Part shown: in pieces, positions 4,213-59,459 of the stretch
Numbering within the stretch: the first letter of the stretch is position 1
Layout of the letters: every line of letters begins with the position of its first letter
NCBI RefSeq assembly: GCF_006345805.1
Contig: NC_042998.1
Coordinates: 112,902,001 to 112,966,000 of the forward strand
Direction: 5' to 3'
Length of the DNA stretch: 64,000 nucleotides
From: Octopus sinensis
Taxonomy: Eukaryota
Program-made: the position numbers and the translations under genes
The notes under the pieces: model-generated
What the model saw: the letters and a program-made list of their open reading frames with translations, nothing else
Told to the model about the DNA's origin: nothing
Database searches by the model: none

Positions 4213-4256
4213 TCATTCACTGTCACTGCCTGATTCAGTCAAATGTAAGTCTTCAC
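4213..4256 (-). CDS. EAF: EAF coding exon 7 (last): (S)[13 protein letters not shown]
   Basis: Acceptor ttctatttttcaag; conserved EAF C-terminal motif; TGA at 4215-4213. Confidence 0.92.
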
Positions 4257-7200
4257 CTTGAAAAATAGAAAGAGAGAATAAAATATACAATGAGATACAC
4301 TTTCTGGTGGAGGAGGAAGAGGAGGAAGAGGAGGTTGGGGATTCACATAGTTGATAGCAAAAAAAAAAAAAATGGTAACTATCTAGATATTTTATATCAA
4401 TATTTTGTCGTTTTGTTTTCTTTATTTTTCACTGCTACATTTAATGCGCACGAGCCGGGCAATACTGCTAGTATTGTATATGTAAAAAGCCACAAGTACC
4501 TCCACCAACCAAAGGTACCTCCACCAACCAAAGGTCAATGACAATTTGAAATTTTGGGCTGACATCGCATCTCAGTGACATGAGGGCTTTACTTCCAGAA
4601 AGCACAGAACTAAGAGAAAAGTAAAATTAACTGGGGTGGATGTCATCAGAGAAAATATTGACTTCCATAAAGTGGAAAAATTTTGCAGAGTGTTTGTTGT
4701 AAAAAACGAAAAACTGCAAAAGGATATCGAGACCTCATATGGGTTTGTTTTGCAAAATGCCTTTGTGTAAAGGGTGTTTTGGACAGCTTCCTGATAGAAA
4801 TATGGCATAACTATATTTTGTTGTTTGATAGTAATACTATCATGTATTCCTTTCATTTTATTACAAATAATATGTGAAAGTGAGAAATACAGATTAATTT
4901 TCAGTATGTTACACACCTGTATTCACCTTTGCCTCGCCTGTTAATGAGTATTTTTTATTAGATGCATTCTGTTATGTAAATGTATTCATTAAATTGTATA
5001 AGAGTACATAGCCAATGGTATATTGACTAGTTAAAGAGTTTTGTACTTTATTTACAATGAAAATGTTTGAATGAAACAGAGAAAGAATAAAATCTTGTAC
5101 TGATTATATACATCATCATCATCGTTTAACATCCGTTTTCCATGGGTTGGATGGTTCGACCGGGGTCTGGGAAGCCAGGAGGCTGTACCAGGCTCCAGTC
5201 TCATCTGGCAGTGTTTCTACAGCTGGATGCCCTTCCTAACGCCGACCACTCCATGAGTGTAGTGGGTGCTTTTTACGTGCCAGGGGAGGCTGGCAACGGC
5301 CATGATCGGTTGGTGCCTTTTACGTGCCACCAGCACGGAAGCCAGTCAAGGCGGCGCTGGCATCGGTCACATACAGATGGTGCTTTTTACGAGCCACTGG
5401 CACAGCATGCCACCGGCTAATTCAAATTAATCTATCTCATCTTGAAAAGTGGCAAAATTGTTGGCAGTTGACATCTGGGATAATTTTAGTAACAAATCAA
5501 ACAGGTAAGATGCATTAAGAATTTCAAATATAGTGTTTATCCATGTTATTGCTTTTATACCTATTAATTAAATTTACCTGCCCATAAAAGTCAAATTTAA
5601 TCAGCAAGATCAGTTAAAATTACATAACTATAATCCACTGGTAGATAAGCACCCCACTGACAAAATCTCTGCCAGTACTGCCTTACTAGCCCTCATGCTG
5701 GTGGCACATAAAAGCACCCACTACACTCTCGGAGTGGTTGGCGTTAGGAAAGGCATCCAGCTGTAGAAACTCTGCCAGATCAGATTGGAACCTGGTGCAG
5801 CCATCTAGTTCACCAGACCTCAGTCAAATCGTCCAATCCATGCTAGCATGGAAAGCAGACGTTAAACAATGATGATGATGATGATGTAAAAAATTAACTA
5901 AGTTACAAGCAAATATTGAACCTGAATAATTCAAAATAATGTGAACAAATAAGCATTGCATTCGATAGATTAATCTGAACACTAAAGGGTTAAACTAGCT
6001 TCACTACTTGTTGTGGTCTATCATCTCTTTTGTGAAGTCCAGGATCTTCAGATCAGATCTTTTAACAGATAATTTCACTTAGCAACTAACTAATTCATAA
6101 TGTGCCTTGTTAATACATTTTCATTTCTAATACATTCTTATAAGTTTAAATATTATTTCAGTAACTAACATGTACTACCCTTGAACAAAGTACAACTCAA
6201 CTACTTCACAGCTACAGCGATCATAGCAGGAAGGGCACCCAACAACTACTCTAACAATTAACCATCTCTCACACATTGAAGAATGGATGTAAACAGTAAA
6301 AATACTTTTGATAGCTGCATGTTCTTAGCCACTGAGGGAGCTTTTATGTGGTCACTCAAATGGAGAAATAGCAGCCAAACCCCTTTCAAATCATGCCCTA
6401 CCATCTTAAAAAAATGAAGTAAATACTACATGATGTAATCTTAGATATATTATGCAAAAAAAAAGGTAAAGCAGTCACAACTGGAACTCATTTGATCAAC
6501 AACATATCTGAACAGAGCTAAGCTCAGTTTAAATAACAACAACCTATCAAACAGAGTAGGAAGTTCTTTATACAAGCTAGTGAGAAGAGGGGGAGAAGGC
6601 CACAGATGACCTGAATTGTTACAATACAGTGGGAACTGCACACTATGACTGGTGATGGTGATGTTACACTGGGTCATATGTTAGATATACCACTCAAAAT
6701 GAAACTGTGAAGTAAATAAAGAACCTTTTTTCATGTCAGTAAGATACATAAAAGCAAGGAGAGTTAAATGCGTTGGTCAATGTTACACTACAATGACCAT
6801 AATGAATATGAAGGGGTGCTGAAAAGTTCCTGGCTTTGGGTAAAAGAGAATACAGGAGGATCACAACAGATTCCCTTCTTAGATTCACAGACTTATTGCA
6901 GCTGTTGGAAGGTTGGGCCCCCAACCAAGCCTTTCACAATACCCTTAAAGCCATGGACTTTTCAACACCTTCTTGCATATGAAAAAAAAATGAGAATAAA
7001 TTATACTTACTTAACGTACTAAGGTCTTTCGATGGAACATCACATGGAGCAGGAGTATCTGAAGAAAAATATCAAATAAGATTTTAAAAATAGGAAAATA
7101 AACATAATTATTGGCATGAGCAACATACTTAATAAAACACACACGCACACATATGTATCTATTTGGCAAATAAAAATCAACAAAAAGTGGAATGAGTTCA

Positions 7201-10200
7201 CAAACCATGTTACACGCTCGACACTCAGGGAAATGAAAATAGTTAATCTCTAAAATGTTTTGGATATTGTACTTCAGACAGTGCAATAAAAGAGGAGGAA
7301 AGACCAGGAGAAAGTGGAAAATGAAGAAGTAAAAAATTAAAAACAGCAATCCCAGTGAAAGAGGTTTGTCAACTTGCTGGCCACTGACTCACTGAAAGTA
7401 GGGCCAGATTAACCATTTAGCATTTAATGAAGCCCAAATATTCTACTTATTTCATGTTAAAACTGACCAGATCCAACCTTTCATACCTACCTTACAATAT
7501 CATTCTAAAAATATACAGGAGGCCAGAATTTTCACAGTGTGTCATGTTGAGTTAACCTCAGAATTACAACAATGACTCAAATACATTTTAAACACTCAGC
7601 TACTTACACAATAAAGCAATGAGTTGGTAGTTTTGTTTATCAAACAATTGGAATATTCATCCCCAAAACTGACAGAAAATTCAATTTGCTATTGAGTGCA
7701 TTAGTTGTTTGACATGGAAGGAGGTACGATTGTTTAGTTTGTTAACTGGAAAGCCATCAAGCAGTTTCTGAGGAATATCTTTACAAAATTCATCGAATCA
7801 TCAAATTGAAACAATGTTTACCTTTGTTAGGTCCTCCCTCTGAATCAGAGTTGTCTGATTCTGAATCACTAGACACATCACTGCCACTTGATGAAGAACT
7901 ACTACTGCTGCTTTCTGACATGTTATTTGTCAACGCTACTGGAGCACACACATTTAGAGAACTGTTACCATTATCTGGAACAAAACAGAAACAACAAAAT
8001 CTCAACATGTAGTTGAACACAGAAATCTACAAAGTGAACAGTTATTTTGCAGCAAAAGCTAAATATAATACCAGAGTGGAGCCTGGTGCAGCCACTGGCT
8101 CTCCAGACCTCAGTCAAACCGTCCAACCCATGCAAGCATAGAAAACAGATGTTATCGATGATGATGACAATGATGATGATGATGATAATGATGAATACAG
8201 GATAACAGTTAGAAACTAATACAAGTGAGGTAGATTGATACAAGCAATGAAGGAGCCTCTATATGCTGATTAAACCCACATAAAGTAGCCACAAAATCTC
8301 CCTCAAATTCCACCTATTTTATCAAAAAAAAAGGTATGTGTGTGTGTGCGTATGTGAGAGAGAGAGAGAGAGAGAGAGAGAATCGTGATGTCATAGAAGA
8401 GAAATATGTCCGCATGTATGATGGCTCACTTGCATTTAATGAGGCTGCGAAGAGAGAGACTTGGAGATACCACTATACTATGAAAGGTTGCTAAACAAAG
8501 AGAAAGAGAGTCTGCTAAATGTTGACCCAACAAATGGACCAGCTATCCAAATTGACAGTACCTTGGTAGATAAAGCAATTAAGGGTTTGAAGACAGGGAA
8601 AGCCCAGAGGCAAAGTTCAGAGAGCTCCTACCTCTGCTGGTAACAAAGGGCCTCTCACTCAAAGTAAAAGGTAGACTGTATGACACAGGTGTGCAAACAG
8701 CCATGCTATATGGCAGTGAAACATGGGCTGTGACTGCTGAGGACATGTGTAAGCTTGCAAGAAATGAAGCTAGTATTCTCAGCTGGATGTGTCAGTGTAC
8801 ATACATGACAGGGTGTAAGCACCTTAAGAGAAAAGTTGGATATAAGAAGCATCAAATGTGGTGTGCAAGAGAGACGACTGTGCTGGTATGGCTATGTATT
8901 GCATATGGATAAGGACAGCTGTGTGAAAAAGTGTCATGCCCTTACAGTGGAGGAAACCTGTGGAAGCAGTAGACCCAGGAAAACCTGGGATGAGGTGGTG
9001 AAGCACGACCTTCAAACGTTGGGCCTCATGGAGGCAATGACAAGCAACCAAGACCTTTGGAGATATGCTGTGCTTGAGAAGACCTGGCAAGCCAAATGAG
9101 ACTGTAACCATGGCCTATGTCAGTATAGCATAACCGGCACGTTTAAGAGTACCTTTCAATCATTGAGCAACAAACTGTGCTTGAGAAGACCTGCTGAGTC
9201 AAGTGAAATCATTGTTGTGGCTGATGCCAGTACCGTGCCAGTGGCACGTAAAAAGCATCATTTCAGCATGGTCGTTGACAATGCCACCTGACTGGTCCCA
9301 TGCCAATGGCACATAAAAAGCACCATTTAAGCGTGGTCTTTGCCAGTGCCACTTGAATGGCTCCTATGCTGGTGGCACGTAAAAATACCATTCGAGCGTG
9401 GTCGATGCCAGAACCACTTGACTGGCCCTCGTGCTGGTGGCACATAAAAAGCACCCACTACACTCTTGGAGTGGTTGGTATTAGGAAAGGCATCCAGCTG
9501 TAGAAACCATGCCAGTCTTCAGTCAAACCATCCAACCTATGCCAGCATGGGAAGCAGGTTTTTAAATGATGATGATGATGATATGCATATTAGACAATTT
9601 AGACTTAGATATATGATACTGAAATAAAAGAGCTGGTCATTGTTAGAACACCTACAATCATATGTTAGCTGGATGAGGACTGAGTAGAGCCAAGAAAACA
9701 CTAACAAGATAGAGAGAAACAGATGTAAATTAAAGTATATAAAGTAAATAGGTGTGGGGTAAGATGTTTCCTTCCCAAACACATGGTCCCAAGTTCAGTC
9801 CCACTTCATGGCACCTTGGGCCAACCAAAGCCTTGTGAGTGGATTTCATAGATGGATACTGAAAGCTGCACTCATTGCAGACTTATACACAAGCTCCTAC
9901 AGAGGGCTGATTGGGCTATCAGCCCCAAACTGGAGAGAGCAATAGTAATAAAACATTTATTGGTACCCTACCATCTCAGATTAACATCACAGAGTATCAC
10001 ATTTGGAGAATTTTGTGTCACTGTGAAATTTGGTGTACACTGTAAAGAAACAGTGGTTGACAGATAGAATGTAACGTTTATTATTGTAGGTAACAGAGGT
10101 AACTGTCACAAAGTTTTAGTATTAAATTCAAAAAGTTTTGGTCAGTTTTCTGACACAGAATGTCATGTTTAGTATTATAGCTAAGGGAGGTAACTCTTGC

Positions 10201-13200: not shown

Positions 13201-16200
13201 ATTGTAGAAAATGCAAGAGAGTATATTTTAGATTAAAAATGAACTGTTTATCTTAATTTTGAAAAATAAAAGAAGTACAAAAAACCCACATATATACATA
13301 CACACAAACTGCATATATACATGCACACAAACACACACACACATGCACACACACACACACGCACGCACACGCGCACACACACACACACACACATATATAT
13401 ATGTGTATACATATATATATGTGTACATATATACACACACATGTTTATGAATTTGTGTTGCATGATTCTTGATGTGAAGTTGTGTGTTGAATAGATATTG
13501 TTGTAGTTCATTTATTTATTTATTTTTCTTCCAATTAACCACATGCACTATATATTCGTTCTTCACTCATTTATTACTGTTCTTATTTTAACTCATATCC
13601 ATTGTCCAGAAATCTTTTGTCATTCCTGTGTGACCTTCTCAGCGACACTTTCCATCTTCGTGAGTGCTCCTGTTCCACTTATTCCATTCTGTTCTTATAT
13701 GATGTGTATCCTTATATGCACATGTGTCTGTGTTTGTGTGCATATAAGTCACTGTTCTGAGTAGCATTACGACCCGCTCCCCAGCCCTGTCCCCTACCCA
13801 GTTGCCATTGCTGCTGCCCTTGAACCCGACTTTTTGTACCGTTCTTGTAACTTACTGTGTTTGTATGTTCGCCCATGCTGCTGCCATCGTGGTCAAACAC
13901 ACAAGCACAGTGAGTTACAATGGTACAAAAAATCGAGTTCAAGGGCAGCAGCAGCAGCGCTCAACAGGGCAGGGGACAGGCCTGAGGAGAGGATCATAAT
14001 GCTACTAAGAACAATCACACACACACAAAACACAGATGCATGTGCATATAAGGATACACATCATAGAAGAACAGAATAGAATAAGCAGAGCAAGAGCACA
14101 CACAATATGGAAAGCGTCACTGAGGAGGTCACAGACGTGTGATGGAAGATTTTTGGACAATAGACATGAGTTAGAATAAGAACAATAATAGACGAGTGAA
14201 GAACAAATATATAGTGTGTGTATTTATTTGAGAAAAAAATGACCATCCCAAAATACAATATATATATATATATACACATACACACATGCACTCTGTGGAG
14301 TGGTTGATGTTAGGAAGGGCATCCTGCTATAAGAAGCATGCCAAAACAGACACAGACATCTGGTGCAGTCTTCTACCAAGCCAGCTCCTGTCAAATCATC
14401 CAGCCCATGCCAGCATGGAATGATGAGGATGACGATATATGTATGACAGGTTTCTTTCAGTTTCCATCAACCAAATTCACCCATAAGGCTTTGGTCAACA
14501 TGGGGTTATAGTAAACAAGATGCCACTCAGTGGGACTGAACCCAAAACTATGTGGTTGGGAAGCAAACTTATATATTACTTACCTCTGTTGTTATCAGGT
14601 TCAACTGGTGTCAAAGCTGGAGAACACTCTTTAAAGGAAGATGGACTATGCTGAGACATTTTGCCACTTTTCGGAGGTGATGTTTTCATTTTACTACTGT
14701 CAACAGGAGTGAGTGGCCTCATAGAAAGACGACTAGAACCTTCAGCTCTAAAAATAGAAAAAGAAGTAAAAATAACTATATAATTAAAAAAATAAAGATT
14801 ATATTTTTTCATGACTGATGATTGTCATCACTGATCAGTATAAGATGTTATAAATATATTGCATAGAAAGTTGTGAAGTTGTTGCTTTTAATACTTTAAG
14901 TTGGCCATGTTTCAGGAAACTTCTAGTATATCTTTAGGGTAACCAATAACTTGTGAGTAGTATTTGGTAGATAGAAACTGGCTGGAAGCCTGTTGTATGT
15001 GTAAGTTTATATCTTTTGGCAATGTATATCAGTCAAGGATATAACACCAGTGAGAAAATACCCAAAACACTGCTTTATGAATAAAGTCTCTTGCGATATG
15101 CTGAGTTTCAAATACTGCTTTGCCATTCTTGTCATTAGAAACATAGTGAAATGGTTATTGGCACACTGAATATCTATAAGCAATGATGATGTTGTAAAAA
15201 GAATAGATACAATTTTTTTTTTTTAAATGGTTTCAGTCATGAACATTCCAACTTCCTATCCAAATAAAATGTTCTTTTTCATAAAATGTTACAATCATCA
15301 TTAAATGATGATGATGATTATGATGATGATCAATGAGGTTTGAATGGCTATGGAGGTCCAGTATAGTAAAATATGAATCCAAGGAGTCCATAGACAAAAA
15401 TTGATTGAGAACCACTGCGGTGAAGTCATTTATGTAGACACAAAATGAGGTAACAGGATAGGTCCTGAAATATATTTGAGCATGAATCATTTTTTGTTTT
15501 GTATTGGATAAATCTGGAGGAAAGAGATGTGCTCTTGGCCTTTGCCGGTCTTTGTGACTGGTGAAATTGATTCAGTTAACTTTCCTTTTGAACACTTGTA
15601 CATCAACAGTGGAACAAATATTTGTCACATCATCATCATCATTGTTTCGCGTCCGCTTTCCTTGTTAGCATGGGTTGGATGGTTCGACCGGGGTCTGGGA
15701 AGCCAGGAGGCTGCACCAGGCTCCAGTCTGATCTGGCAGTGTTTCTACAGCTGGATGCCCTTCCTAACGCCAACCACTCCGTGAGTGTAGTGGGTGCTTT
15801 TTACGTGCCACATATATATTTTTACGTGTCACATATATATTTTCTTTATTCGTTTACTTGTTTCAGTCATTTGACTGCAGCCATGCTGGAGTACCACCTT
15901 TAGTCAAACAAACCTAAGGACGTATTCTTTTGCCAATCCGCTAAGTCACAAGGGCAGAAACACACCAATATCAGTTGTCAAGCAATGGTGGGGAGACAAA
16001 CACTGACACACAAATAAATAAATACAGAAACACACACATACATACATACATACATCTATATACACAACAGGCTTCTTTCAGTTTCCATCTACCAAATCCA
16101 CTCACAAGGCTATATTAGAAGACACTTGCCCAAGGTGCCATGCAATGGGACTGAACCTGGAACCATGTGGCTGGTAAGCAAGCTTCTTACCACACAGCCA

Positions 16201-16304
16201 CCCCTGTGGCTACATCCTCAGTGTGTGTGTGCGCGCATGATCATATATTTACTGTGTATATGTATATATGACTAGATCATTGCTTTCATCACTCTCTGTA
16301 TATA

Positions 16305-16341
<37 letters not shown>

Positions 16342-19300
16342 ACACACACACTCTACCAGCTTATATTATAAAATATATATATTTCTTTACTACCCACAAG
16401 GGGCTAAACACAGAGAGGACAAACAAGGGCAGACAAACGGATCAAGTCGATTACGTCGACCTCAAGGCGTAACTGGTACTTAATTTATTGACCCCGAAAG
16501 GATGAATGGCAAAGTCAACCTCGGTGGAATTTGAACTCAGAACATAACGGCAGACGAAATACGGCTGCACATTTCACCCGGCGTGCTAACGTTTCTGCCA
16601 GCTCGCTGCCTTCAGCTTATATTATAAAATATATACTGGACAATATAATCCCTGGTGTGCAAAAAAACAAGTTGGTCATAGGAGGAAATTCTTTCATCAT
16701 AGGCTAGCTAGATCAGGACAGAAGTAGGGCTGGGGTGGGGAGTGCTAAACAATAACTAAATCCAATTAAAATCTCTTTAATGAGACTGTCACACTTACCT
16801 AGTTTTCTTCACTTGTATGGTGTTGGAGAGTTTTTCCAGTGTAACTGATCCGGAGGCATTATCAATAATAAGGACACACTCTTTTGGACATGTCCTTTTA
16901 TTTCCTTTATACACAGTGTGTGTCGTACCTGAACTCTGAAGACAGATGGAAAATAAATACCAATTTAAGTCATTTCTCAACACAATTTTTAAAAATTTTA
17001 TTTACTATTTTAAATCTCTTTTAACTTGCTTGCATGAGAGCGAGGTGATTTATTTACCATTGCCTACCATAAGCCATGAACCAAGCTAGAGTCTAATTCT
17101 ACTGTATCTTCTTTCTTTGCGGATATGTCCAAGTGTGTTCCTTCTGTTGTAGCTTTATTAGACAGTAGAAAGGTTAAGTAGGTGGCAGTCTCATGAATCC
17201 GTTAGTGAATGTAAACAATTAGAATAATTGTTTATTACAGCTGAGTGCACTTCCTACTAAAGACTAAATAGCCATGGAGTATGCTCAAAGTGAAATTTTT
17301 AACCAGTCACACAATCTAGAACAAAGGAGTTATATGTCTTGCTCAATACAATTTAAGCTTATGATCATGATGCCATTGGTCCAATGTCATAACTACCAGG
17401 CAAAAAGCCTTGCAGTATTTAGTTACTTAATATTCTTGAGTTCAAATCCTGCTGTGGTCAACTTTGCATTTCATCCCTCCGGGATCAATAAAACAAAGTA
17501 TCAGTCAAGTAGAAGGGTTGATTTTTTTTTTCATCTAACCAACTCAATCAAATAATTGATCTTATGTATATCTATAAAAAATTAATATTATTAAATGCGA
17601 TGATGGATTGGAAGGAACAAAACAAAAAATACCTTGTGGTATTTAGTTATGTCCCCTTTACGTCCTGAGCTCAAATTCTGCTGGGATACATTTACTTGAC
17701 CATCTTTCTGAGACTGATATAGTCAGCCAAACATCTCTCCAAAAATTAATTGATTTGTGCTAATGTTAGATATAAGCATAATTATTATAAATAAGGAATT
17801 GAAATGGTAATAAAAGAAGAAAATCAATGGTTACTGAATCAACAACAGATTCTAAACCATATATACATGTATATATAAATCTGTAGTACATTGAGAGAAA
17901 TTCCATAAATGGAATGCTTATTTGTAAAATTTATATATAAAATTTTAAAATTTGCAAGCTACATGAACTGTGTACATGGATATTAATGAACAATTCATAC
18001 ACACTCTCCCAACTACTTATATGTGAGGATAGTCTACTGGTGGTTTGATGTTCAAATTTCAGTTCGGCTGAATATAATTTTCTTTAGAAAACTGCTTACT
18101 ATTCATTTAGTGTACCATTCATATATGCTCTCCAAGCACTTTAAACATGTGCATAGTACATATGTGGTTTGCTGTTCAAATTTTAAACTGTTAGGTAAAT
18201 GGACATCCAGACACTTATCCACCTGTGTAGTCTCCCCATGGTTCAGCAATCAAATTTCAGCCCATTGTGCAAGTTTAATTTCCTTCAGAAAAACTGCTCA
18301 TTATTCATTTAGAGAAGTGGTAAGCTAGGGAGCTGCACTAGGTTCCAATCTGATTTGGCATGGTTACTATGGCTCTCGGAGCATCTACCTCCACTACTGA
18401 CTTGGTCACCTAGGTAACGGAAGCTATCAACTACTTCTAGTTTTCCCCTCCGGCATTTGATGGAGTCAATTTTCTGTACATTTTTAGTGTTAATTGTACC
18501 TGTACATCTTCTACACACACAAACTATTTTCCCTGTTAACCTTCCCCTGATATTGCTGCACCTCTTATATATCTGTAGCTCACAGTGGGTACATCTTATG
18601 CAGTTTCTACTTACACCTTTTCTACAGATCGAACAGAGCCATCTACCTGAAGGGATTTGCGATTTGGTTTTTTGGCTCTAAAGCCTCTAAAAACAGACCT
18701 AGAGAACTAAAAGTTTCATGTTGTAGCTTAGACAATGAGCTTTCCGAAAAGGTGTAGCATGCCAAGATCAGATGACGATTAAGGTGTATGCAAATAATTA
18801 AATGAACAAATGAAATTAAACATTAGTTTTTCAGTCAACATACACTTTATTTACTGTACAAAAAGTATTAAATGAATCAAAAAGATATAGTATAGCATAA
18901 ATATCATGTCAAGATCAGATGATGATCAAGATGTACTACTCTGGCTGGGCCTTCTCCATCACCTTAATGTGATGCCTGTTGCCCTTCATAAACATCAGCC
19001 TCTCAAGTTATCATCTGACAGGGTGGCTCTCTTGGCCCTCAAAATATCTTTGCCTAAAGAGAATAGGCGCAGCATTGAATGAGATGGAGGTGTTAGGTGA
19101 ACAGGTCGATTAAGGCCTGCTCGCCCAAAAAGTCAGGACCCCCTTAGAGACAGCCTCCAGCCAGATCCTCACCAAGTTCTGCGCCTTGGATTTCAGAGAC
19201 CTGTGACCCCTGCTCTTCAAGAACCAGGTGATGTTGCTGAAGAAATCACTGGTGGTGCTGTTGCCCTCCTCACTGGTCTCCATGGCATTCGTTACCCAGC

Positions 19301-19944
19301 TAACCTGGCTGTTATTATACTGCTCCTGCCAAAACAGGTGAAAGTTAGCGGAACTAAATTTAGCAGAAGCTAACTGGTCCGCTAACAGCTTTCAAAGTTA
19401 GCGGAAATGCTAATCAGCTAAATGAAAAGTTAGCTTTGCTAATTAGCTGTTAGTGGATTAGTGGAAATGCCCCCCCCCCCACTGTATATATATATGTGTA
19501 TACATAGAATGAAATTAAAGATAAATATATATAACGATGATGATGATGATGATATATATATACATATATTTAATGAAATTCAAGAAATGACAAGGGAGGA
19601 ATTATGCAATCAACCTTATTAGCTTACAGGTGTTTCTGCTATAAGATGCAGTGCACCAAGATTTGACTGCTTGTGCATCACTTGTAACTTCCTCAGAGCT
19701 ATATATTTTTTTAGAAGCTCCAAGGAGCAATAAGGTGATGCATAAGTACTCACCTCTGAATGCACTGCATCTTATAGCAGAAACAGCTAACAAGGCTGAT
19801 TATGTAATTCCTGTTTCTTTGCCATTTCTTTAATTTCATGTAATCACATAACATTTTTCTGAAGCATATGCATATTAAGTTCTAACAGGTTATGAGTATT
19901 GTCGAAGCAAAATCATTATATACATACATATGTGATGATATATA

Positions 19945-19981
<37 letters not shown>

Positions 19982-21952: not shown

Positions 21953-22039
<87 letters not shown>

Positions 22040-22348
22040 ATATATATATATATATAATATATATATATATATATGATGATATATATATATATATATATAG
22101 TTGGCGTTAGGAAGGGCATCCAGCTGTAGAAACACTGCCAGATCAGACTGGGCCTGGTGCAGCCTTCTGGCTTCCCAGAACCCAGTTGAACCATCCAACC
22201 CATGCTAGCATGGAAAGCGGATGTTAAACGATGATGATGATGATAATGATGATATATGTTTGTGTGTATATATATGATGATAATGATATATATATATATA
22301 TAATGATGATGTGTATGTATACATGTGATGATATATATATAAAAAGCT

Positions 22349-22386
<38 letters not shown>

Positions 22387-25291
22387 GTAAATCCTTGAGT
22401 ATAATCTGCATTTTTTTCCCAAAATTTAAAGGTCAAAATCCTTAGTGCGTACTATATACGAGGTTAAAAATGAAAAATATTTCCTAAACAATGTCCGAGT
22501 CTCTATTTGCTGTTCAGCAATGTTTATGCAGACACCTTTTGTGATGTTGGGCGCAAAAATACCTTCAGCTAAGCCTGAAAGCAATGAAGTCATAAAAGAA
22601 TCATCCATAACTTGCAGTAAGCAACATTTATTAAACGTTATAACTGTTATTTCTTTATTTTCTGCCAACAAAATGCACAAAAAAGCTACACGTTAGCATT
22701 ATGTTATATATACAATAATAATAAAGGACACTACAGTATACATTTTTACAAACCAAGGACGTTATATAGACCTCCTTGACTCAAGTTAGAGAAGGGGTGC
22801 GTATTATACACAATGTTTAGATTTTTCAAAGGTACAGCCCCATAAAAATCCCCTGCGTATTATACTCAAGGGCGGACTATACTCGAGGATTTATGGTATA
22901 TACATGATGATGATGAGTGAGGCAATTACAACTACAACTGTACTGAATAGAAAAAATTATTAGCTGAGTTATTAATTCTGATTAAGAAAAGCAAGAAAGA
23001 CAATTCCTGGAATTAAATTTAATTAAAGACAGAATGCAGTGTGGTAGTTAGCCTGATTTTTTGCAATACAATAATCCTAACTTACCTCAATATGTGGCAC
23101 AGTTATTGTAACTTGGTTTTTCTCACCAACTTCTAAAGCAGCTTCTTTTGTAACATCAACCGATGCTGGTTTAAAGTCATCTAAGATAATCAATAGAAAA
23201 TTAAAATTACCTGACAAGCTGATAGACGATTTCATTTATATTAGTCATGTTTTAAGAAATATTATCTTCACTGAATAAGCAGGTTCTTTTAGGTATTATT
23301 TATGGCTTTTTCGGTACCTCTAACATTTTGGAGTCCCCACACTTCTTGGGAACAGGTAAGGGTAAGGGAGGAAGAAACTACATCTTATTTTGTCTTCACC
23401 TAGCTGAATGCTTGCAATAGAGGGGCTCAGCAAAAGGCACCTGTGGGCCTGTTGACAATGTTGAACTGAGCAAAAAATGGTCACAGTCCAGTCCATGGGC
23501 TTGAACAGCAGGACTAAACTGAGAAGAAATATGTCGTGAAGCAAACTTCTCAAACACAAAACCATACAAGGACCAATATTAGTGGGTGTATTATATTATA
23601 CTAACATTATAGTATATATACATTAACATATTATAGTACAAATATTCAAAAGTTAAATATAAAGTTCATAATGTATTATTTAAGAACACAATGGCAATAA
23701 AAAGCTAACAAGTTTAAATTAGTAAGCTTTTTTAACCGTTTCATGGCTATATTCCTAATGAAATACACAATCTATGTATTTCAGTAAATTTTTAACATAA
23801 TCATGAACTTGGAAAGATTTACTAAAATAACTTTTTTATTATTAAGCTAATATTGGGAACATGTCTTAAAAGACTTTACATAAATTATGATGGAAATTTT
23901 AAGTTTAAAATAAATACATTGATTTGCTGTAAATGACTGCAGTTGATCATTTGCTAGGAATGTCCTACATTTGTTTGTTTAAATTTCTTATTGCCAAAAT
24001 ATTTTTATTGATATCATTCATTAATTTGATAATTTACACAGCAATGAACTACACAAGCACTCGTAAACGATCTCATACAATCACTTTCCTAAACACGATA
24101 TTTTTATGAATTACAACTCCAACTACTCCCTAACATTAATCAGTTGGTTGTAGGCACAACTCAATAAAAAGTGACCCTGCTCGATCTGTAGAAAAAGCAT
24201 AGGTAGAAACTCTGTAAGATGTACCCAGTGTAAGCTATGGACACATAAGAGGTGTAGCAATATCAAAGGAAGGCTAACTGGGAAGATAGAGAACAACTTC
24301 TGCCACATTCCAGGAAGAAAAACTACAAGCAGTTGATAGCTTCACCAGATCAGATTGGAGCCTGGTGCAGCCATCTGGTTCACCAATCCTCAGTCAAATC
24401 GTCCAACCCATGCTAGCATGGAAAGCGGATGTTAAACGGTGATGATGATTTATCAGTTGACGATTCATTTCTTTGCTACAGTTCTGCGCTACACTTTTTT
24501 TCTAGTCAAACATGAAAACAGTGACTATGAACCTTCACAGGGTGTCCGAGATTGGGGAACAGTAACCTGGCCCAAAAGCTTGTTCAATGGAATCCACTAC
24601 AGGACTAATGGATTTAAACTGAGAGACGGAAACAGTTTACTACCCATGTAAACCAATACAGGATATGATCACAAAATGCAAAGAGCCAGAATAAATAATG
24701 CAAGGCATCTGGTATGATGTTCTTTCAGTTCCGAAAGAACAAAAAAGCAAGGTCTCTTAGCACATGGAGAGTGAGACCTATCTACCTGGTGAAGACCAGC
24801 GTGAAGAAACAGGAGCTGGCTACATCTTTTGCAAGGGGCAAAAGCTATGAAGATCAGCATGGCTACGGTGTTGCCTTTGCCATCAAGAGCCAACCAGTCA
24901 GAATGCACGGTGAGGTAAGCTATCGGATGCTCTAATGATTCTGCCAATTCATCACTCAGGCAATCTGTTGGAAATAGGAGCTAAATTTTCCTTAAACCAC
25001 TTATTACAACTTTAAATAAAGAAAATTACATCTGACTGACGGGTACGACAGATACTCCTTTCATGATGGGTTTGCTCTTTCATTGTTGATTTGTGCTAAT
25101 TAGCCATAACTGATTGTTACCACAAGGTTTCCAGTTCTAACACAGCGATTTTTGTGTGCGCGTGAGCAGACAGACAGACAGACAGATAGGTAGATAGATA
25201 GATAGATAGATACGGCCGGTCTACCAGGTTACCTTTAATTTCACGTCCATAAAGCGCTTAGCTTTACAGCGTTTCTTCAGACCCTAGGCCT

Positions 25292-25344
<53 letters not shown>

Positions 25345-26448
25345 CCCACACAAACATGCGTGCAAGTAATTTATTTTACCTTTTGTTCATCAAAATTCTT
25401 ATTCGAAGCACTAACTTGTTTCATTTTCCTTTGTATAAGTTTAAATTTAAAACGAATACTTATTCCTATAAATTTCGCTTCCAAACCAACAAGAAAACAC
25501 AAACTCAGTGATATTTTACAATACATCGGACATACACCATAACATCAATATTGTTAGCTAAACATATGGCGGCGTAAATTTCTCAATCAAGTACAGTTAA
25601 CTTGCACGATTATTTTTGATGCACATGAACAGAAGCGAAACTACGCAACAAAAGTATGCGCAAGCATGCGGGTATGCATATAATCAAGGGTATTTCAACT
25701 AATATATATATATAATAGTACCCGATGGCGAGGTTTGACATACACACAAGAAAAAAAAAGAAGTTACGATACGAGAAAATCTCTATGCGGCCGACTGATA
25801 TGCTAGAGATATCACTGTCTTAAATAAGAGTACACAGGGTAGGCAGGATGGTCACGTCTGGAACACTGATGGTTAATTTGGGTTAAACTGACTGTTACTA
25901 TATAAGGTTTCCTATCTGATCTCAGAGATTTGTAAGTGTAATTAAATGATCATACAACAGTCCACGACAGAATGAGATTAATTTGATAACCAGCTGGCTT
26001 ATGATTATTTGTTAAATGAGAAATATCAAGGTATTAGAACAATATTTAGTATATTTCACAGTTACCTTGTATTCTCTTTCATCAACGATCATAATTGTAG
26101 ACCAATTCTAATCACTGGATATATTCGAAATAATGATTTATAATGTAGGTGCAAATCCACGAATGTTATGGAAGCTCTATTACCGAGTATACGGACGATA
26201 ACACATTCGGAAAAACTTCTGCTATTACTTTACTTGCTTTATCGATTTCCCGGAAGGACGAAAGGCGAAGTCGACCATGACCGAACTTGGAACATTTGAA
26301 ATAGTAAAACGAATAAAGAGGTGATTATAAAGCGAATACACGAGAGAAAGTTTCAGTACTTACATCTGACAGAATGGAAAGCAACTCTAGGATTCGGATC
26401 AAAGCTTGCTCCAAGTCTAAGTTCAACAACACTATTGTCTTCTGCCAT
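4213..26448 (-). CDS. EAF: ELL-associated factor (EAF1/2 homolog), 7 coding exons, 241 aa
   Basis: Exons 26448-26364, 23180-23086, 16935-16799, 14747-14584, 7974-7822, 7058-7011 and 4256-4213 total 726 nt with GT-AG boundaries in consistent phase. Protein [37 protein letters not shown]...[34 protein letters not shown]...Ser/acidic tract...[18 protein letters not shown] matches EAF family motifs (FHTIRYDFKPAS, LEKLSSSIQVKKTRAEGSS, DLQLSESGSDSD). Confidence 0.96.
6805..6995 (+). mobile_element. Mariner-like terminal fragment or MITE
   Basis: Begins tatgaaggggtgctgaaaagttcc (mariner-type TIR after TA) with an imperfect inverted copy acttttcaacaccttcttgcata near 6958-6980. Confidence 0.5.
7011..7058 (-). 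CDS. EAF: EAF coding exon 6 (48 nt): (D)[15 protein letters not shown]
   Basis: Acceptor tttttcttcag and donor gtaagt, phase 1/1; joins exon 7 to give LSTLSEDL, matching EAF LMNTLRNDL. Confidence 0.85.
   Translation of the reverse strand: MLLLHVMFHRKTLVR
7822..7974 (-). CDS. EAF: EAF coding exon 5: Ser/Asp/Glu-rich region
   Basis: Acceptor ttttgttccag and donor gtaaac; [23 protein letters not shown] matches the EAF acidic-serine tract. Confidence 0.92.
8390..9581 (+). mobile_element. Internally deleted RTE LINE, 3' part with tandemly repeated 3' UTR and (GAT)n tail
   Basis: [17 protein letters not shown] and [14 protein letters not shown] motifs followed by the family 3' UTR. Confidence 0.88.
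12770..13290 (+). mobile_element. Mariner transposase remnant
   Basis: [24 protein letters not shown] (HTH), FFHQDN..PHT and [13 protein letters not shown] (YSPDLAP region); disrupted. Confidence 0.85.
13520..14240. repeat. ~720-bp imperfect palindrome (fold-back element) in EAF intron 4
   Basis: Arms 13520-13875 and 13885-14240 are reverse complements, e.g. gctgcccttgaacccgactttttgtacc vs ggtacaaaaaatcgagttcaagggcagc. Mirror ORFs [14 protein letters not shown] appear on both strands. Confidence 0.9.
14584..14747 (-). CDS. EAF: EAF coding exon 4
   Basis: Acceptor ttctatttttag and donor gtaagt; begins (R)AEGSS as in EAF1/2. Confidence 0.93.
15840..16210 (-). mobile_element. tRNA-derived SINE, family A
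   Basis: Minus strand ...gtggtaagaagcttgct...ggttcagtcccattgcatggcaccttgggcaagtgtcttc... with a pol III B-box-like head; relatives at ~9752-9870, 14445-14570, 46690-46830, 51605-51830, 54370-54730, 54800-55050. Confidence 0.75.
16385..16612 (-). mobile_element. tRNA-derived SINE, family B
   Basis: ggcagcgagctggcagaaacgttagc head, gagttcaaattcc B-box and central gttgactttgccattcatcctttcggggtcaataaattaagtacc domain; decayed copies near 17400-17520, 49800-50090 and 56120-56250. Confidence 0.75.
16799..16935 (-). CDS. EAF: EAF coding exon 3
   Basis: Acceptor ctgtcttcag and donor gtaagt; [45 protein letters not shown](R). Confidence 0.97.
18320..18670 (-). mobile_element. RTE LINE RT-region fragment
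   Basis: CRRCTG...[19 protein letters not shown] motif. Confidence 0.75.
18960..19484 (-). mobile_element. hAT transposon remnant (C-terminal dimerisation domain plus one end)
   Basis: Minus strand reads [29 protein letters not shown]; short subterminal gttagc/gctaac repeats and a cagtggggg terminus at ~19484. Confidence 0.7.
19572..19839. repeat. ~270-bp imperfect hairpin in EAF intron 2
   Basis: Perfect 25-bp core tgtttctgctataagatgcagtgca (19631-19655) pairs with tgcactgcatcttatagcagaaaca (19761-19785); arms extend about 130 bp each. Confidence 0.9.
20290..20720 (-). repeat. Interspersed repeat, possibly a Penelope-like terminal repeat; second copy at ~45620-46110 (+)
   Basis: The two segments align in opposite orientation (gtacaggacacc...gaacacaa.gagaaacgaaaacataaa...ccttcccgc.aaa); both abut (TA)n. 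Confidence 0.6.
20940..21953 (+). mobile_element. 5'-truncated RTE LINE with (GAT)n tail
   Basis: [20 protein letters not shown] and [11 protein letters not shown] motifs plus the family 3' UTR. Confidence 0.88.
22385..22896 (+). mobile_element. Non-autonomous pogo/Tc1-type element (MITE) with TIRs and TA TSD
   Basis: TA|ccgtaaatccttgagtataatc ... gactatactcgaggatttatgg|TA; longer sister copy at 52509-53219. Confidence 0.85.
23086..23180 (-). CDS. EAF: EAF coding exon 2
   Basis: Acceptor attatcttag and donor gtaagt; (Y)[31 protein letters not shown]. Confidence 0.97.
26364..26448 (-). CDS. EAF: EAF coding exon 1 (ATG at 26448; the exon has a splice acceptor at 26481/26480)
   Basis: [28 protein letters not shown] with donor gtaagt, good Kozak context gtcATGG, and an upstream acceptor ctttttctattttag. 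Confidence 0.94.
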
Positions 26449-27339
26449 GACGAGACAAGCTAGAGTTGCGAAGGACCACGCTAAAATAGAAAAAGTTATT
26501 TACAACAAAAACAGGAACTAAGAGAACCAATGTTATCTATCGAAAGAGATAGATGTGCGTAAAGAAAAGCATTTGTATGCATGTGAATAGTAGAGATGTC
26601 GAAAAATATCTCGATTGGGACAGGAACTATGAGTAGAGAGAGAATGTCAACAGACTCTGAAGTGGGACATGAAAATAATAGACATTGAAGAGCTCGGTAA
26701 TAAAGAGAAATAACTCTTAGGCACCTCCCGCTTTACGGGAACGTTGCGTTCTGTAATTGTACCGTAATGTGGGATTCCGTGAAACGAAAATCAATTTCCC
26801 ATTGATTTCGATGTTATAAGGCTTTCCGATGAATTTCTTTTCTTCGAGAAATATTACATTAGGATACATATCACAAAATATGTCAGTCGGTAGGGTGCAA
26901 TGGGAATTACTTGGAGAAAAAAGGACACTATTTTCTATTCTGCAGAACATAATCATCACTATTTCAAGGGTGACAAACATTCAAAGTTGTTCAACATTTA
27001 CAGTACGCCATTTCGTTGAACAGCTCCTGTGTGGGGACTGAACTCAGTATATAGTCCTTTTGTAATTTTACGTTCACATTTCACAATTATGATTGTCATC
27101 GGCAAAGATTTGCAAATCTTATCCGGTAAATTCCAACCCTTTAGCTATATTCTTGAAAGTCAACTGAAAAGGACCCAGTGGAGCTTCTATATCCTCTTAC
27201 TAAGCATTCTGCTCCTCTAAAAGAATCAGCTTCCTAGACAAACTTCCTCTATGGGACCTGAGCAACTAATCAATTAATCTACAATTTATAGTAACATCTG
27301 ATATAGAGATCTGACTGCTGAATATTCCCACTAAACCCT

Positions 27340-28200
27340 TCTGTTTGTGGAAAATCTATAAAACCCCTGATATAAACCGGACATATATTTTCCAAATTAA
27401 ACAACATTCATATCGCTGAAAGATTCACTTCATTTTGTGACTCGACTGTAGTTCCTATCAATTGCTTTTTTATGAATTGTTTCGAAATTCTGATATGATA
27501 TATTGTGAAACTTGCTATCACACTATAGTTCATTGATTGGAGCAAAGAAATCGTGTTCTTGGGAATATACTCCACTCTCACATTATTAGAAAGCACTTTT
27601 AATTTCACTGAATGGCTAAGTATTGTCTAAAACGAGAAAAACTTTCTGGGAAACATTACACGAGACACAGCAGGGTAGGAAAGTTTGTAAACCAGTATCG
27701 CAAAAGGCTCATAGTCCCTCAAGACTTTCTATTTGAATGTCAGATCATAGGTAGATTAAATTTTGCATAACCTTCGAAAATCATTGTATTTTTGGAGTAA
27801 GGGTAGTAATTTCACATCAATAGTAGCATTTCCTTCAACAAGATGCGCAAGACGACTTTTGAAACTTTAACAACCCGATGCTAAGTTTTCTTCACTTGAA
27901 ATAAAAGTTCTAACAGACATGTAGACTCATAAAATCCTATTTTTATCAATACTGTATATTTGTTCTGGTATGTAGCCTACTTCAGCAATTATTTTCCCCA
28001 GCTCCGCAGAATAATAATTACTACAGGTTCTGTTTCAGCATTGTCAGTTTCACAGGTCAGTGTGCAAAATTAGGCGTTTATTTTACCTTTCAGACCAGAT
28101 TTTACTGGCCAGACAAGGTTTTGCATCAAAAGTTGCACTTTCCCCTTCTTGCAAACCATCAAACAAGCTCTCAGCTTTCGCTTAAACAATCATTATTTTT
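27340..28200 (-). mobile_element. Tigger/pogo (DDE_1) transposase remnant
   Basis: VRVEYIPKNTISLLQSMNYSVIASF resembles the DDE_1 motif PPNTTSLLQPMDQGVI; also GYIPEQIY; many stops. Confidence 0.7.
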
Positions 28201-28530
28201 ATTGTCATATTGTGTCCAGTTTGATTGTCAATCCGCTCTCTCTGGAGGAGGAGGAGCTTTAGAAAAAGTGATCAATTATAATTATTGAATAATGTTCATT
28301 GTTATATATAGTGCTCCAGCTTAATCTAGATTGGTGTAATAGAGGGAAACAGGAATATTTTGCGGACATCGAATTCATTGGAATTTAGAAAGACAAATTT
28401 CAATTTCTTTTTCTCCAGAAGGGCAAGGATTTTCTTCATTTCATTAGCTGTAACACACTACGTAGAATATAATTCTTGCATGTCTCAATTCCTTATAATT
28501 ATATATTTATTATTTTTTTCGCTTTTAAAA

Positions 28531-29727
28531 CTATGGATTTTTATACTTACGTTTCTGTTTACTTTCTATTGTTTCAGAGATAGGTATTCTCATATTTTTA
28601 TGTAAGTGAAAAGAAGACTGAATATCAGAAATACTATGGTAATGCTTCTCGACATCCTCTAAAACATTTGGATGACACCTTTCCTTGAATCTTCTTAAAT
28701 GGTTAGGTTCGGGACATAAAGCTGATTGTAGAAATTTCTGTTTATTGTTGAGATTAAGAGTCTGTAAACCATTATTTGATGTTGGTTTCTTTTCCAGAAA
28801 TTCAAAATCTGTTGAATGAAAATGCTCTTCTAGACGATCTGAAGTCCCACGATACATTGCATTTAGCCGTCTTCTCACAAGTTGTCGCTGCTCCACTCTA
28901 TAATACGGCCACGCAGCATCAACTTCCTTCCAAGCAGGAATAGTCAAAGTAAATCGCTGTCTTTTGTAACATGTAGATACTTCACTTAATTTAAATTCAA
29001 AGGATTTTTTGTCATTTTCGGAAATGCCATGTCTTTTCAATAATCGAAGTAGTTCACACTTGTTATATGGTCGAAGAGCTAACAAATGAATAATTCTCTT
29101 TCGTAATGATGATTTCCTAACGTACGAGGGAATATGTAACTCATTACTCAATGAAAATGAAGATTCCCCAGATAAATTGTCAGATATTAAGGCCTTATTA
29201 TTCCAGCCATCACAAAGTGATGCATTAAAATTCGAAACCTCATTATCTGAATGCGAGAGAAATTTTTTGTATTTAAGATTCTTTGATAGACAAATCTCTT
29301 TCGCAGGTTTCTTTTTCGCTTCTTCCACGTGCATTCTTTTTCTGAATTCTTTAAACGAATCACGATTTCCATGCATAACTAGTTTATGAGTGATACACCC
29401 TAAAGAACTGATACAGTTTTCATTTTTTGACAGCACTTGCTGGAGACAATAAAAAACGCCATTGACTTTACCTTGTACACAATATAAGTTAAAATGAAAT
29501 GTATATTGTTCGCTATCTGTCTCTAAAGGACATACAGGAATTTGAATAAAACCTGTACCATCGTTATATATTTTAATAGTGGGATGCAGACAACTCTCTG
29601 TTGCGTTTCTTAAAAAATCTTGCAGTTTTCCTAAAATGGACTCTGTAAAAACTGCGTGTATGATAGTTTTGTCGTCTTCACAGGAAGTCGACAGAGTATA
29701 CAGAGGATGTTTTTCTAATGTTGACAT
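28531..29727 (-). CDS. ELL: Divergent ELL-like RNA polymerase II elongation factor, single uninterrupted 398-aa ORF (retrogene-like), lacking the occludin-homology domain
   Basis: aa ~8-145 follow the ELL N-terminal domain (IIHAVFTES, GFIQIP, FHFNL, GVFYCLQQ, SLGCITHKL, DSF...RM..EE). aa ~207-290 follow the ELL winged helix (LRKRIIHLLALRPYNKCELL, WKEVDAAWPYYRVEQRQLVRRRL; compare FRDRVLHLLALRPYRKAELL and DWPGYSEGDQQLLKRVL). Confidence 0.9.
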   Translation of the reverse strand: MSTLEKHPLYTLSTSCEDDKTIIHAVFTESILGKLQDFLRNATESCLHPTIKIYNDGTGFIQIPVCPLETDSEQYTFHFNLYCVQGKVNGVFYCLQQVLSKNENCISSLGCITHKLVMHGNRDSFKEFRKRMHVEEAKKKPAKEICLSKNLKYKKFLSHSDNEVSNFNASLCDGWNNKALISDNLSGESSFSLSNELHIPSYVRKSSLRKRIIHLLALRPYNKCELLRLLKRHGISENDKKSFEFKLSEVSTCYKRQRFTLTIPAWKEVDAAWPYYRVEQRQLVRRRLNAMYRGTSDRLEEHFHSTDFEFLEKKPTSNNGLQTLNLNNKQKFLQSALCPEPNHLRRFKERCHPNVLEDVEKHYHSISDIQSSFHLHKNMRIPISETIESKQKRKYKNP

Positions 29728-29836
29728 AGTGGAAACAAACGACCTTCTTGCTTGATTAATTCCGAAATGCTTATTTTTTAATATTTTCAGAACTATATTA
29801 GTTCAAAGCTGTTTCTATTGTATCTACCCCAGTTTG

Positions 29837-29846
29837 ATGACGTCAT
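29837..29846. promoter_or_regulatory. Palindromic CRE (ATGACGTCAT) ~110 bp upstream of the ELL-like ATG
   Basis: Exact TGACGTCA at 29838-29845 with a TGACG half-site about 10 bp away. Confidence 0.4.
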
Positions 29847-31699: not shown

Positions 31700-31899
31700 G
31701 ACTATTCAATTTTCGCGGTTCCCTTTGCATTTTCAATGATAGTCTGTTTATTGCCAAGGCATCTGTAGCAGCAAACAGTTTCAACTTCCGCTTGTGAGGA
31801 CATGGACTCATTTCATTGGCTAAAAATATATAACTTTAAATGCTTCTATCTTGTTAATTATTAATCCCCCCCTCCAAAAATGGATGCAATATTCGTCAT

Positions 31900-59455: not shown

Positions 59456-59459
59456 GGTC

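What the first reader, a model, noticed from the sequence alone, without database searches (positions are those of the whole stretch)
4213..29727. Predicted in-frame ELL::EAF single-chain fusion by one read-through splice
Seen in sequence: the ELL-like ORF has a consensus donor AAAC|GTAAGT after nt 1177 (28551/28550, phase 1), six codons before its stop. The EAF ATG exon has a strong acceptor ctttttctattttag| at 26481/26480, followed by 32 nt (CG TGG TCC TTC GCA ACT CTA GCT TGT CTC GTC) and then ATG. Joining them across a 2070-nt intron gives ...[23 protein letters not shown]... with no stop, a 644-aa protein of ELL N-domain + winged helix + complete EAF. A splice to EAF exon 2 (also phase 1) is in frame too. 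Established: ELL and EAF are separately encoded heterodimer partners that stimulate Pol II elongation. Inference: this locus could encode a covalently pre-assembled ELL-EAF module in which EAF replaces the ELL occludin-homology domain. Caveats: phase matches by chance 1 time in 3, and the acceptor may serve a separate non-coding EAF first exon near the CpG-richer 26700-26900 stretch.
Basis: partly seen in the sequence, partly recalled or inferred. Interest (0 to 1): 0.9.

Follow-up and report, generated by a model that had tools for sequence, protein, structure and literature searches.

The report
Octopus single-chain ELL–EAF chimeric retrogene
In octopuses, an intronless copy of the transcription-elongation gene ELL sits just upstream of the gene for its own binding partner EAF and is spliced onto it, giving an mRNA for both halves of the ELL–EAF pair as one protein; databases already hold it as an unnamed prediction, and its function is untested.

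Summary
The junction 28551^26480 (2070-nt GT-AG intron) is present in the assembled contigs of 3 of 3 contig runs laid (3 studies, 3 organism labels); it is absent from the 1 raw RNA run laid. In two runs a single contig spans the ELL-like exon and the EAF exons, and no contig continues past the donor. So this is an alternative first coding exon of EAF, not a rare read-through. Ordinary EAF mRNA starts inside that intron (~26650) and runs unspliced through the acceptor. The ELL-like exon is a retrocopy: its multi-exon parent, which keeps the occludin domain, lies 61 Mb away. It is sister to octopod ELL, is also annotated next to EAF in Argonauta, and its folded domains show purifying selection (3 replacement vs 6 silent changes, p=0.004). 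The 644-aa product equals RefSeq model XP_029655880.2, "uncharacterized". I found no paper on it and no such fusion outside Octopus. Best reading: a tissue-restricted, pre-assembled ELL–EAF elongation factor lacking the AFF/SEC docking domain. Translation, tissue and intramolecular pairing are not shown.

The parts
28551..30618 (-). Distal first exon of the chimeric mRNA: leader plus ELL-like coding part. The contig 5' end is 30618 in X1, 30759 in X14 and 29818 in X4; contigs do not fix the true start.
   Evidence: table 8
28551..29727 (-). ELL retrocopy coding part, aa 1-392: N-terminal domain (about 1-140), winged helix (about 205-295), freely drifting tail (296-392). No occludin/OCEL domain.
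   Evidence: Pfam PF10390 147.8 bits; 7okx_M and 2doa_A matches; no OCEL hit
28545..28550 (-). Donor GTAAGT (phase 1), six codons before the unspliced stop
28531..28550 (-). End of the unspliced 398-aa ORF, with an AATAAA at 28511 just after it; no contig covered this stretch in the three expressing runs
26481..28550 (-). 2070-nt fusion intron; contains the ordinary EAF promoter
   Evidence: joint 26480/28551, skips 2070, CT..AC on +
26364..26650 (-). Ordinary (proximal) EAF first exon, unspliced across the acceptor; 8 molecules begin at 26650 in X22
   Evidence: tables 2, 4, 6, 8
26449..26480 (-). 32 nt that are 5' UTR in the ordinary EAF mRNA and coding linker (aa 393-403) in the chimeric mRNA
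   Evidence: one residue differs in P0001/P0011
26364..26448 (-). EAF coding exon 1 (ATG at 26448)
23086..23180 (-). EAF exon 2
   Evidence: loose end at 26364 in X1, X4, X14 is exon 2 sequence
16799..16935 (-). EAF exon 3
14584..14747 (-). EAF exon 4
7822..7974 (-). EAF exon 5 (Ser/Asp/Glu-rich)
7011..7058 (-). EAF exon 6
4213..4256 (-). EAF exon 7 to the stop codon
4021..4026 (-). AATAAA 186 nt after the stop; fits the X1 contig length (852 nt after exon 1 = 641 coding + 211)
29838..29845 (.). TGACGTCA (CRE-like palindrome; name recalled) about 110 nt before the ATG and 20 nt before the X4 contig end; a lead only, not significant window-wide
   Evidence: 2 matches in the window, 14 of 100 shuffles reach 2
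30739..31631 (.). High-copy element with 218-nt inverted arms (89%) around degenerate CCCTAA repeats, at the upstream end of the distal exon; role as promoter untested

Best explanation
A processed (retroposed) copy of ELL, lacking the C-terminal occludin-homology domain, inserted about 2 kb upstream of the single EAF gene in an octopod ancestor (inferred from intron loss, tree and gene order). It has its own upstream start and a donor near the end of its ORF that splices to an AG inside the 5' UTR of the ordinary EAF first exon (shown in RNA contigs). The locus therefore has two promoters: a proximal one for ordinary 241-aa EAF and a distal, restricted one for a 644-aa ELL(N-domain + winged helix)-108 aa tether-EAF chain (mRNAs shown; proteins inferred). 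Most likely the ELL N-domain pairs with the EAF N-domain of the same chain and binds the Pol II lobe as ELL2-EAF1 does. That gives a fixed 1:1 elongation factor that cannot be loaded through the AF4/AFF-binding occludin domain, so it acts outside the super elongation complex, probably in male germ cells (all inferred).
For: Junction in 3 of 3 contig runs from 3 studies, with full-length single contigs in X1 (3051 nt) and X4 (2201 nt) and no coverage past the donor. Same junction in gene models of O. sinensis, O. vulgaris and O. bimaculoides. Parent ELL has introns after residues 42, 95, ~137, 247, 270 and 324 that the copy lacks. Copy is sister to octopod ELL, support 100/96. Argonauta ELL-like and EAF have consecutive accessions on a contig of the same length. 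X1 vs window in the ORF: 17 replacement/934 sites vs 11 silent/242 (p=0.03); folded domains 3/546 vs 6/147 (p=0.004); tail 12/235 vs 3/56, neutral, as a tether would be. 29 of 45 conserved ELL N-domain columns and 25 of 37 winged-helix columns are kept or conservatively changed. The EAF half is unchanged (111 of 112 identical to Argonauta EAF). ELL2-EAF1 dimerization domains bind the Pol II lobe (PMC10716050, passages). The occludin domain binds AF4 and EAF1 (PMC8387021, passages). Raw run X22 expresses EAF without the distal exon, so the fusion is restricted.
Against: No protein evidence. The leader holds 22-25 upstream ATGs if the mRNA starts at 30618-30759. The ELL module has diverged strongly: 40% identity to its parent in the N-domain, 16 of 45 conserved N-domain columns changed, stem branch 1.45, Argonauta branch 0.26 vs 0.015 for the parent. 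The Argonauta model is 'partial' and not fused (P0003), and one Logan protein from another source is unspliced (P0012). The three contig runs are not on record as RNA, were chosen because they hold the exon, and contigs drop rare forms. Tissue is unknown. Agreement among gene models is not independent of RNA data or of ORF-maximising predictors.
Confidence: 0.52

Rival explanations
1. The fusion protein is made but works as a competitor or re-targeting factor, not a stimulator. The diverged ELL module no longer activates Pol II; the chain occupies the ELL-EAF/TFIIF site on Pol II, or its intact EAF half captures canonical ELL, while the basic winged helix directs it to new sites.
For: Fast evolution of the ELL module against a nearly frozen parent. 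Changed conserved columns include K20, K26, L27, S30, A120, D123 and T128. The winged helix is better kept than the N-domain (85% vs 68% to Argonauta) and has net charge +14. TFIIF clashes with ELL2-EAF1 on Pol II (10.1101/2023.12.22.572998, one figure-legend passage).
Against: The N-domain is still under constraint (2 replacement changes in 140 residues between window and X1), and the hydrophobic core columns are mostly kept.
Confidence: 0.22
2. Selection acts on the ELL-like module alone. The splice onto EAF only supplies a 3' end and poly(A) site, and the EAF half is a tolerated passenger; a stand-alone ELL-like protein may be the ancestral or an alternative product.
For: An AATAAA lies 20 nt after the unspliced stop. 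P0003 (partial) and P0012 are unfused. One frame match in three is chance. EAF conservation is explained by the ordinary isoform anyway.
Against: No contig passes the donor in 3 of 3 expressing runs. The unspliced stop is not conserved: P0012 keeps the residues around the donor but then runs 29 residues further in an unrelated tail. The 32-nt linker stays open and in frame in three species' models. Landing beside the gene of its own partner and being kept there is unlikely without benefit (inference).
Confidence: 0.15
3. The mRNA is real but hardly translated. The distal promoter and long uATG-rich leader serve to switch EAF output down in that tissue.
For: 22-25 upstream ATGs in an 891-1032-nt leader. 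In X1 and X4 the chimeric form is the only EAF form assembled.
Against: A 392-codon frame stays open across octopods, with purifying selection on the folded domains. The X4 contig starts only 91 nt before the ATG, with no upstream ATG in that stretch.
Confidence: 0.08
4. Artefact: a gene-predictor merge, an assembly chimera, or a processed DNA copy mistaken for RNA.
For: The kind of the three contig runs is a guess or unknown.
Against: The same GT-AG junction occurs in three independent studies with divergent sequence (77, 28 and 3 other letters in the exon). The contigs also skip further EAF introns, and neighbouring intron bins have no depth. The genome has one ELL-like copy and one octopus-type EAF locus.
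Confidence: 0.03

Closest known systems
ELL2-EAF1 heterodimer of the super elongation complex (PDB 7OKX/7OKY)
   Same: Both halves are homologous: residues 16-291 to ELL2 (E 8.7e-17) and 413-620 to EAF1 (E 5.5e-40).
   Different: One chain instead of two. No occludin-homology domain, the AF4/EAF1-binding platform (PMC8387021 passages). The ELL part is a fast-evolving paralog.
Chimeric retrogenes (TRIM5-cyclophilin A, jingwei)
   Same: A retrocopy spliced to exons of a neighbouring gene, with accelerated evolution after duplication (PMC5470649, passages).
   Different: Here the retrocopy supplies the 5' exon and N-terminus and joins the gene of its parent's own binding partner; the host gene keeps its ordinary product from a promoter inside the fusion intron.
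Mammalian ELL3
   Same: An ELL paralog described as testis-specific (seen only as a reference title in PMC6212713).
   Different: A separate gene, not fused to EAF. That it keeps the C-terminal occludin domain is recalled, not checked. The tissue of the octopus fusion is unknown.
Public gene models XP_029655880.2, CAI9717901.1, XP_014781336.1, A0A0L8GG99
   Same: Same locus and junction; XP_029655880.2 is identical to the window's product.
   Different: Automatic names only ('uncharacterized', 'ELL-like', 'EAF1-like', 'reverse transcriptase domain'); none is labelled as a fusion.
Read-through (conjoined) transcripts of two neighbouring genes (general class, recalled)
   Same: Splice from near the end of an upstream ORF into the downstream gene.
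   Different: No independent upstream transcript was seen; the joined form is the only assembled form of the upstream exon in 3 of 3 runs.

Membership tests
ELL family | N-terminal ELL domain with winged helix (PF10390) | tested here: met
   147.8 bits vs cut-off 22.9; 2doa/2e5n match at 203-294
ELL family | C-terminal occludin-homology domain (PF07303) | tested here: not met
   No Pfam hit. tblastn with the last 125 residues of 8 ELLs gave no hit better than E 1.7 in 26000-31000. So an ELL-derived module, not a full ELL.
ELL family | Binds Pol II and stimulates elongation | not testable with these tools
   Needs biochemistry
ELL family | N-domain pairs with EAF | not testable with these tools
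EAF family | N-terminal EAF domain (PF09816) | tested here: met
   83.5 bits vs 26, residues 412-510
EAF family | Ser/Asp/Glu-rich C-terminal region | tested here: met
   Seen in sequence; net charge -11; aligns to EAF1 up to residue 620
EAF family | Made as a small stand-alone protein | tested here: met
   For the proximal isoform only, at mRNA level (X22, X14)
Chimeric retrogene | Intronless copy of an intron-containing parent at another locus | tested here: met
   Parent at G000:C2:51.675-51.740 Mb with at least 6 introns in the homologous part
Chimeric retrogene | Spliced to exons of a neighbouring gene | tested here: met
Chimeric retrogene | Open frame under purifying selection | tested here: met
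   one pair of sequences, 28 differences
Chimeric retrogene | Poly(A) remnant and target-site duplication | not tested
   Not searched; the copy is too old (DNA similarity to the parent loci only in a 39-nt piece)
Chimeric retrogene | Testis-biased expression (common, not defining) | not testable with these tools
   Runs carry no tissue label; absent from 1 of 1 raw RNA run laid
Read-through transcript of two separate genes | The upstream gene also makes its own terminated transcript | tested here: not met
   No contig past the donor in 3 of 3 expressing runs; contigs drop rare forms, so not excluded

The most novel reading that the evidence does not exclude
Octopods have evolved a natural single-chain ELL-EAF: a germ-line elongation factor that docks on the TFIIF/ELL-EAF site of Pol II without AFF or P-TEFb, made by a retrocopy captured next to its partner's gene and kept since before the Octopus-Argonauta split. 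In the cells that make it, it replaces ordinary EAF, which would also deprive canonical ELL of free EAF.
Probability: 0.38. Interest if true: 0.86.

Novelty: new variant of a known kind. Interest (0 to 1): 0.71.

Why it matters
ELL and EAF were separate proteins in every non-Octopus hit examined here. ELL's elongation activity is normally tied to the super elongation complex through the domain this protein lacks. A naturally selected single chain without that domain is a ready reagent for asking what ELL-EAF does on Pol II apart from AFF/P-TEFb. It is also a clear case of a retrocopy fusing to the gene of its own partner. Practically, it explains confused annotation of the octopus EAF gene: the O. 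sinensis model found here is the fusion, named 'uncharacterized'.

Tried and rejected
Structure of the fusion and ELL-N/EAF pairing: no prediction was obtained, so pairing is open. Alignments A3 and A5 were set aside: A3 placed ELL rows on the EAF half, and A5 was not used; A4 and A6 aligned both halves. Profile comparison of the ELL and EAF alignments gave nothing (probability 0.1). ESM Atlas holds P0013 but gave no usable hit. One search listed no holder on record as RNA, and its unlaid rows with low or zero share (X7-X11, X18-X21) are not used as evidence; 4 of 24 listed runs were laid. Other ELL+EAF fusions: only P0002 of 48 hits carries both Pfam families (only 7999 candidates scored, 354-1127 aa). 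In one search (best 150 of 792 shown) the only ELL-like close hits are P0001 and P0003. Nine long or N-extended EAF proteins checked by Pfam have no ELL domain. No squid or cuttlefish ELL was in the tree, so the duplication is not dated against that split. A second EAF hit (L002) and ELL hit (L006) lie on small contigs and are divergent; rejected as octopus paralogs by inference. An occludin-domain remnant downstream of the ORF was not found. The TGACGTCA motif is not significant. Literature: no paper for ELL+EAF+fusion+octopus, octopus+retrogene+chimeric+testis, the three locus/protein accessions (0 occurrences in the 12 papers listed of 13) or the ELL-EAF fusion phrases (6 hits, all unrelated). 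Searches listed nothing relevant. Subscription journals are not searched. Supplements of PMC9476566: no hit, 10 of 22 files not searched. bioRxiv supplements were not seen and could hold tissue data. Three primary papers on ELL/EAF (the Pol II-ELL2-EAF1 structure, the EAF activator paper, the ELL2 paper) were not held. Earlier scan findings: none.
Full report
Observation. The minus strand carries a single-exon 398-aa ORF at 29727-28531 with the ELL domain (PF10390, 147.8 bits) and, 2 kb downstream, a seven-exon EAF gene. An eight-exon GT-AG model of 1935 nt gives a 644-aa protein identical to P0013, which is RefSeq XP_029655880.2, 'uncharacterized protein LOC115229709 [Octopus sinensis]'. The same junction is in an O. 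vulgaris model (CAI9717901.1, 513 aa, starting at an internal Met) and two O. bimaculoides models (XP_014781336.1, A0A0L8GG99). The fusion is therefore already in databases as an unnamed prediction.

RNA evidence. I laid 4 of 24 listed runs on 25400-31050. The joint 26480/28551 (2070 skipped, GT-AG on the minus strand) stands in contigs of X1, X4 and X14 (3 of 3 contig runs, 3 studies, organism labels A, B, G; depth 323.6, 36.3, 134.5). X1 has one 3051-nt contig covering 30618-28551 and 26480-26364, then 852 nt that begin with EAF exon 2. The remaining EAF coding sequence is 641 nt and an AATAAA lies 186 nt after the stop, so the contig has the length of a complete mRNA. X4 has a like contig of 2201 nt. 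Depth in bin 28424-28612 is 106.2, 11.9 and 44.1, exactly 62/189 of each contig's depth (my arithmetic), and bin 28235-28423 is 0 in all three: nothing continues past the donor. In X1 and X4 the chimeric form is the only assembled form of EAF exon 1. X14 also has an unspliced proximal contig (26451-27045, depth 25.7). Raw RNA run X22 (about 6 in 100 of the run read) has no junction read and next to no reads on the ELL-like exon (under 2-fold in two bins, one of them where parent-ELL contigs cross-map in X1), but covers 26364 to about 26650 without a break, with 8 molecules beginning at 26650. So ordinary EAF mRNA starts inside the fusion intron, and the acceptor lies within its 5' UTR. Limits: the three contig runs are not on record as RNA (they skip introns, and neighbouring intron bins are empty, which argues for RNA); they were picked for holding the exon; contigs drop rare forms; tissue is not given. 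In X14 the shared exon 1-2 contig is deeper (409.5) than the two 5' forms together (160), which 3' bias or an unlisted 5' partner could explain.

Origin. The genome has one ELL-like exon, one octopus-type EAF locus and a canonical 578-aa ELL with the occludin domain at C2:51.675-51.740 Mb, 61 Mb away on the same contig. That parent has introns after residues 42, 95, about 137, 247, 270 and 324, all absent from the copy, which marks the copy as retroposed (inference). In a tree of 18 rows and 236 columns the four ELL-like sequences join next to octopod ELL, apart from all other ELLs (100/96), on a long stem of 1.45 changes per column (the duplicate fish row P0010 was left out, and no squid ELL was available). 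Argonauta hians has an ELL-like protein (327 aa, partial) and EAF with consecutive accessions GAB1604857.1 and GAB1604858.1 on a contig of the same length, so the arrangement probably predates the Octopus-Argonauta split; whether Argonauta splices them is unknown. A cuttlefish-cluster EAF is stand-alone. No ELL+EAF protein outside Octopus appeared among 48 hits or the best 150 of 792.

Selection. The 28 differences listed for X1 in the ORF give 17 replacement and 11 silent changes; the 17 are the same 17 that separate P0013 from P0001 in residues 1-392, so the list is complete for replacements. Per site this is 17/934 against 11/242 (p=0.03). In the N-domain plus winged helix it is 3/546 against 6/147 (p=0.004), and in residues 296-392 it is 12/235 against 3/56 (neutral). 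The domain limits were set from the alignment, and this is one pair of sequences. P0012, an unspliced Logan protein 90% identical, keeps the residues around the donor but has a different, longer tail, which suggests that the donor and not the stop is the conserved end (inference; its DNA was not seen). Against a plain ELL function: the copy is 40% (N-domain) and 47% (winged helix) identical to its parent; it differs from Argonauta by 32% and 15%, whereas the parents differ at 8 of 134 and 3 of 91 positions; and 16 of 45 N-domain and 12 of 37 winged-helix columns conserved in 12 canonical ELLs are changed.

Mechanism. Shown: two promoters, two mRNAs, an open 644-codon frame, constraint on the folded ELL domains, loss of the occludin domain. 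From papers: EAF markedly increases ELL activity (PMC6212713, passages); the ELL2-EAF1 dimerization domains bind the Pol II lobe (PMC10716050, passages); TFIIF clashes with ELL2-EAF1 (10.1101/2023.12.22.572998, one legend); the occludin domain is the shared platform for AF4 and EAF1 (PMC8387021, passages). Inferred: the 108-residue tether (296-403) lets the ELL N-domain pair with the EAF domain of the same chain, giving a fixed 1:1 factor that cannot be loaded through AFF. Male germ cells are the likeliest site because retrogenes often are testis-expressed (PMC5470649, passages) and one laid RNA run lacks the exon; this is not shown. No structure model could be obtained, so pairing is untested. 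The leader is a real objection: 22-25 upstream ATGs if the mRNA starts at 30618-30759, but none in the 91 nt covered by the X4 contig. I give 0.52 to a single-chain stimulator outside the super elongation complex, 0.22 to a competitor or re-targeting role, 0.15 to EAF as passenger, 0.08 to an untranslated regulatory mRNA, 0.03 to artefact.

Comparison and novelty. It works like the ELL2-EAF1 pair (7OKX) and arose like the chimeric retrogenes TRIM5-cyclophilin A and jingwei (PMC5470649). It is not a full ELL (occludin domain tested, not met) and not an ordinary read-through (no separate upstream transcript seen). What is new is the joining of a retrocopy to the gene of its own partner, which turns a heterodimeric general elongation factor into one chain while ordinary EAF is kept. 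Searches of the held library found no description; subscription journals and most supplements were not covered. Verdict: real, conserved at least within Octopus, present in databases but unrecognised; new variant of a known kind; interest 0.71.

Noticed in passing
window 48126-49280 (+): Intronless 384-aa ORF with no good Pfam hit (PI3_PI4_kinase E 0.036, below cut-off); weak Atlas leads to Death-domain clusters (0.79-0.80).
   Followed up: partly
window 30689-31707: MITE-like element: 218-nt inverted arms (89%) around degenerate CCCTAA/TTAGGG repeats, abundant in RNA runs from other copies; the X14 distal contig reaches into it.
   Followed up: partly
window about 32000-37000 (-): Broken LTR-retrotransposon-like pieces (gag-, RT- and integrase-like ORF fragments at 36542-36940, 35642-35989, 32929-33240); family assignment recalled, not tested.
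   Followed up: no
window 58912-61388 and 1-1700: LINE-like reverse-transcriptase fragments on both strands; assignment recalled.
   Followed up: no
L002 (G000:C8702:68532-71768) and L006 (G000:C12470:232436-235906): Divergent EAF and ELL genes on small contigs; L002 is gene-dense, with an RPL26-like frame nearby (recalled). Probably a co-sequenced parasite such as a dicyemid (recalled, not tested).
   Followed up: partly
window 26364-26480, run X14: The shared EAF exon 1-2 contig (depth 409.5) is deeper than the fusion (134.5) and proximal (25.7) forms together; 3' bias or a third 5' end.
   Followed up: no
window 27215-28154, run X14: Low-depth contig (6.08) inside the fusion intron, not joined to the ELL-like exon; pre-mRNA or a separate transcript.
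   Followed up: no
window 30317-30688 (-): 123-aa upstream ORF over a low-complexity stretch within the long leader of the chimeric mRNA.
   Followed up: no
P0013 residues 1-295: The ELL-like module has 11 Cys against 4 in the matching part of the parent, and a winged helix of net charge +14.
   Followed up: no
window 61902-62001: 100-base assembly gap, far from the finding.
   Followed up: no
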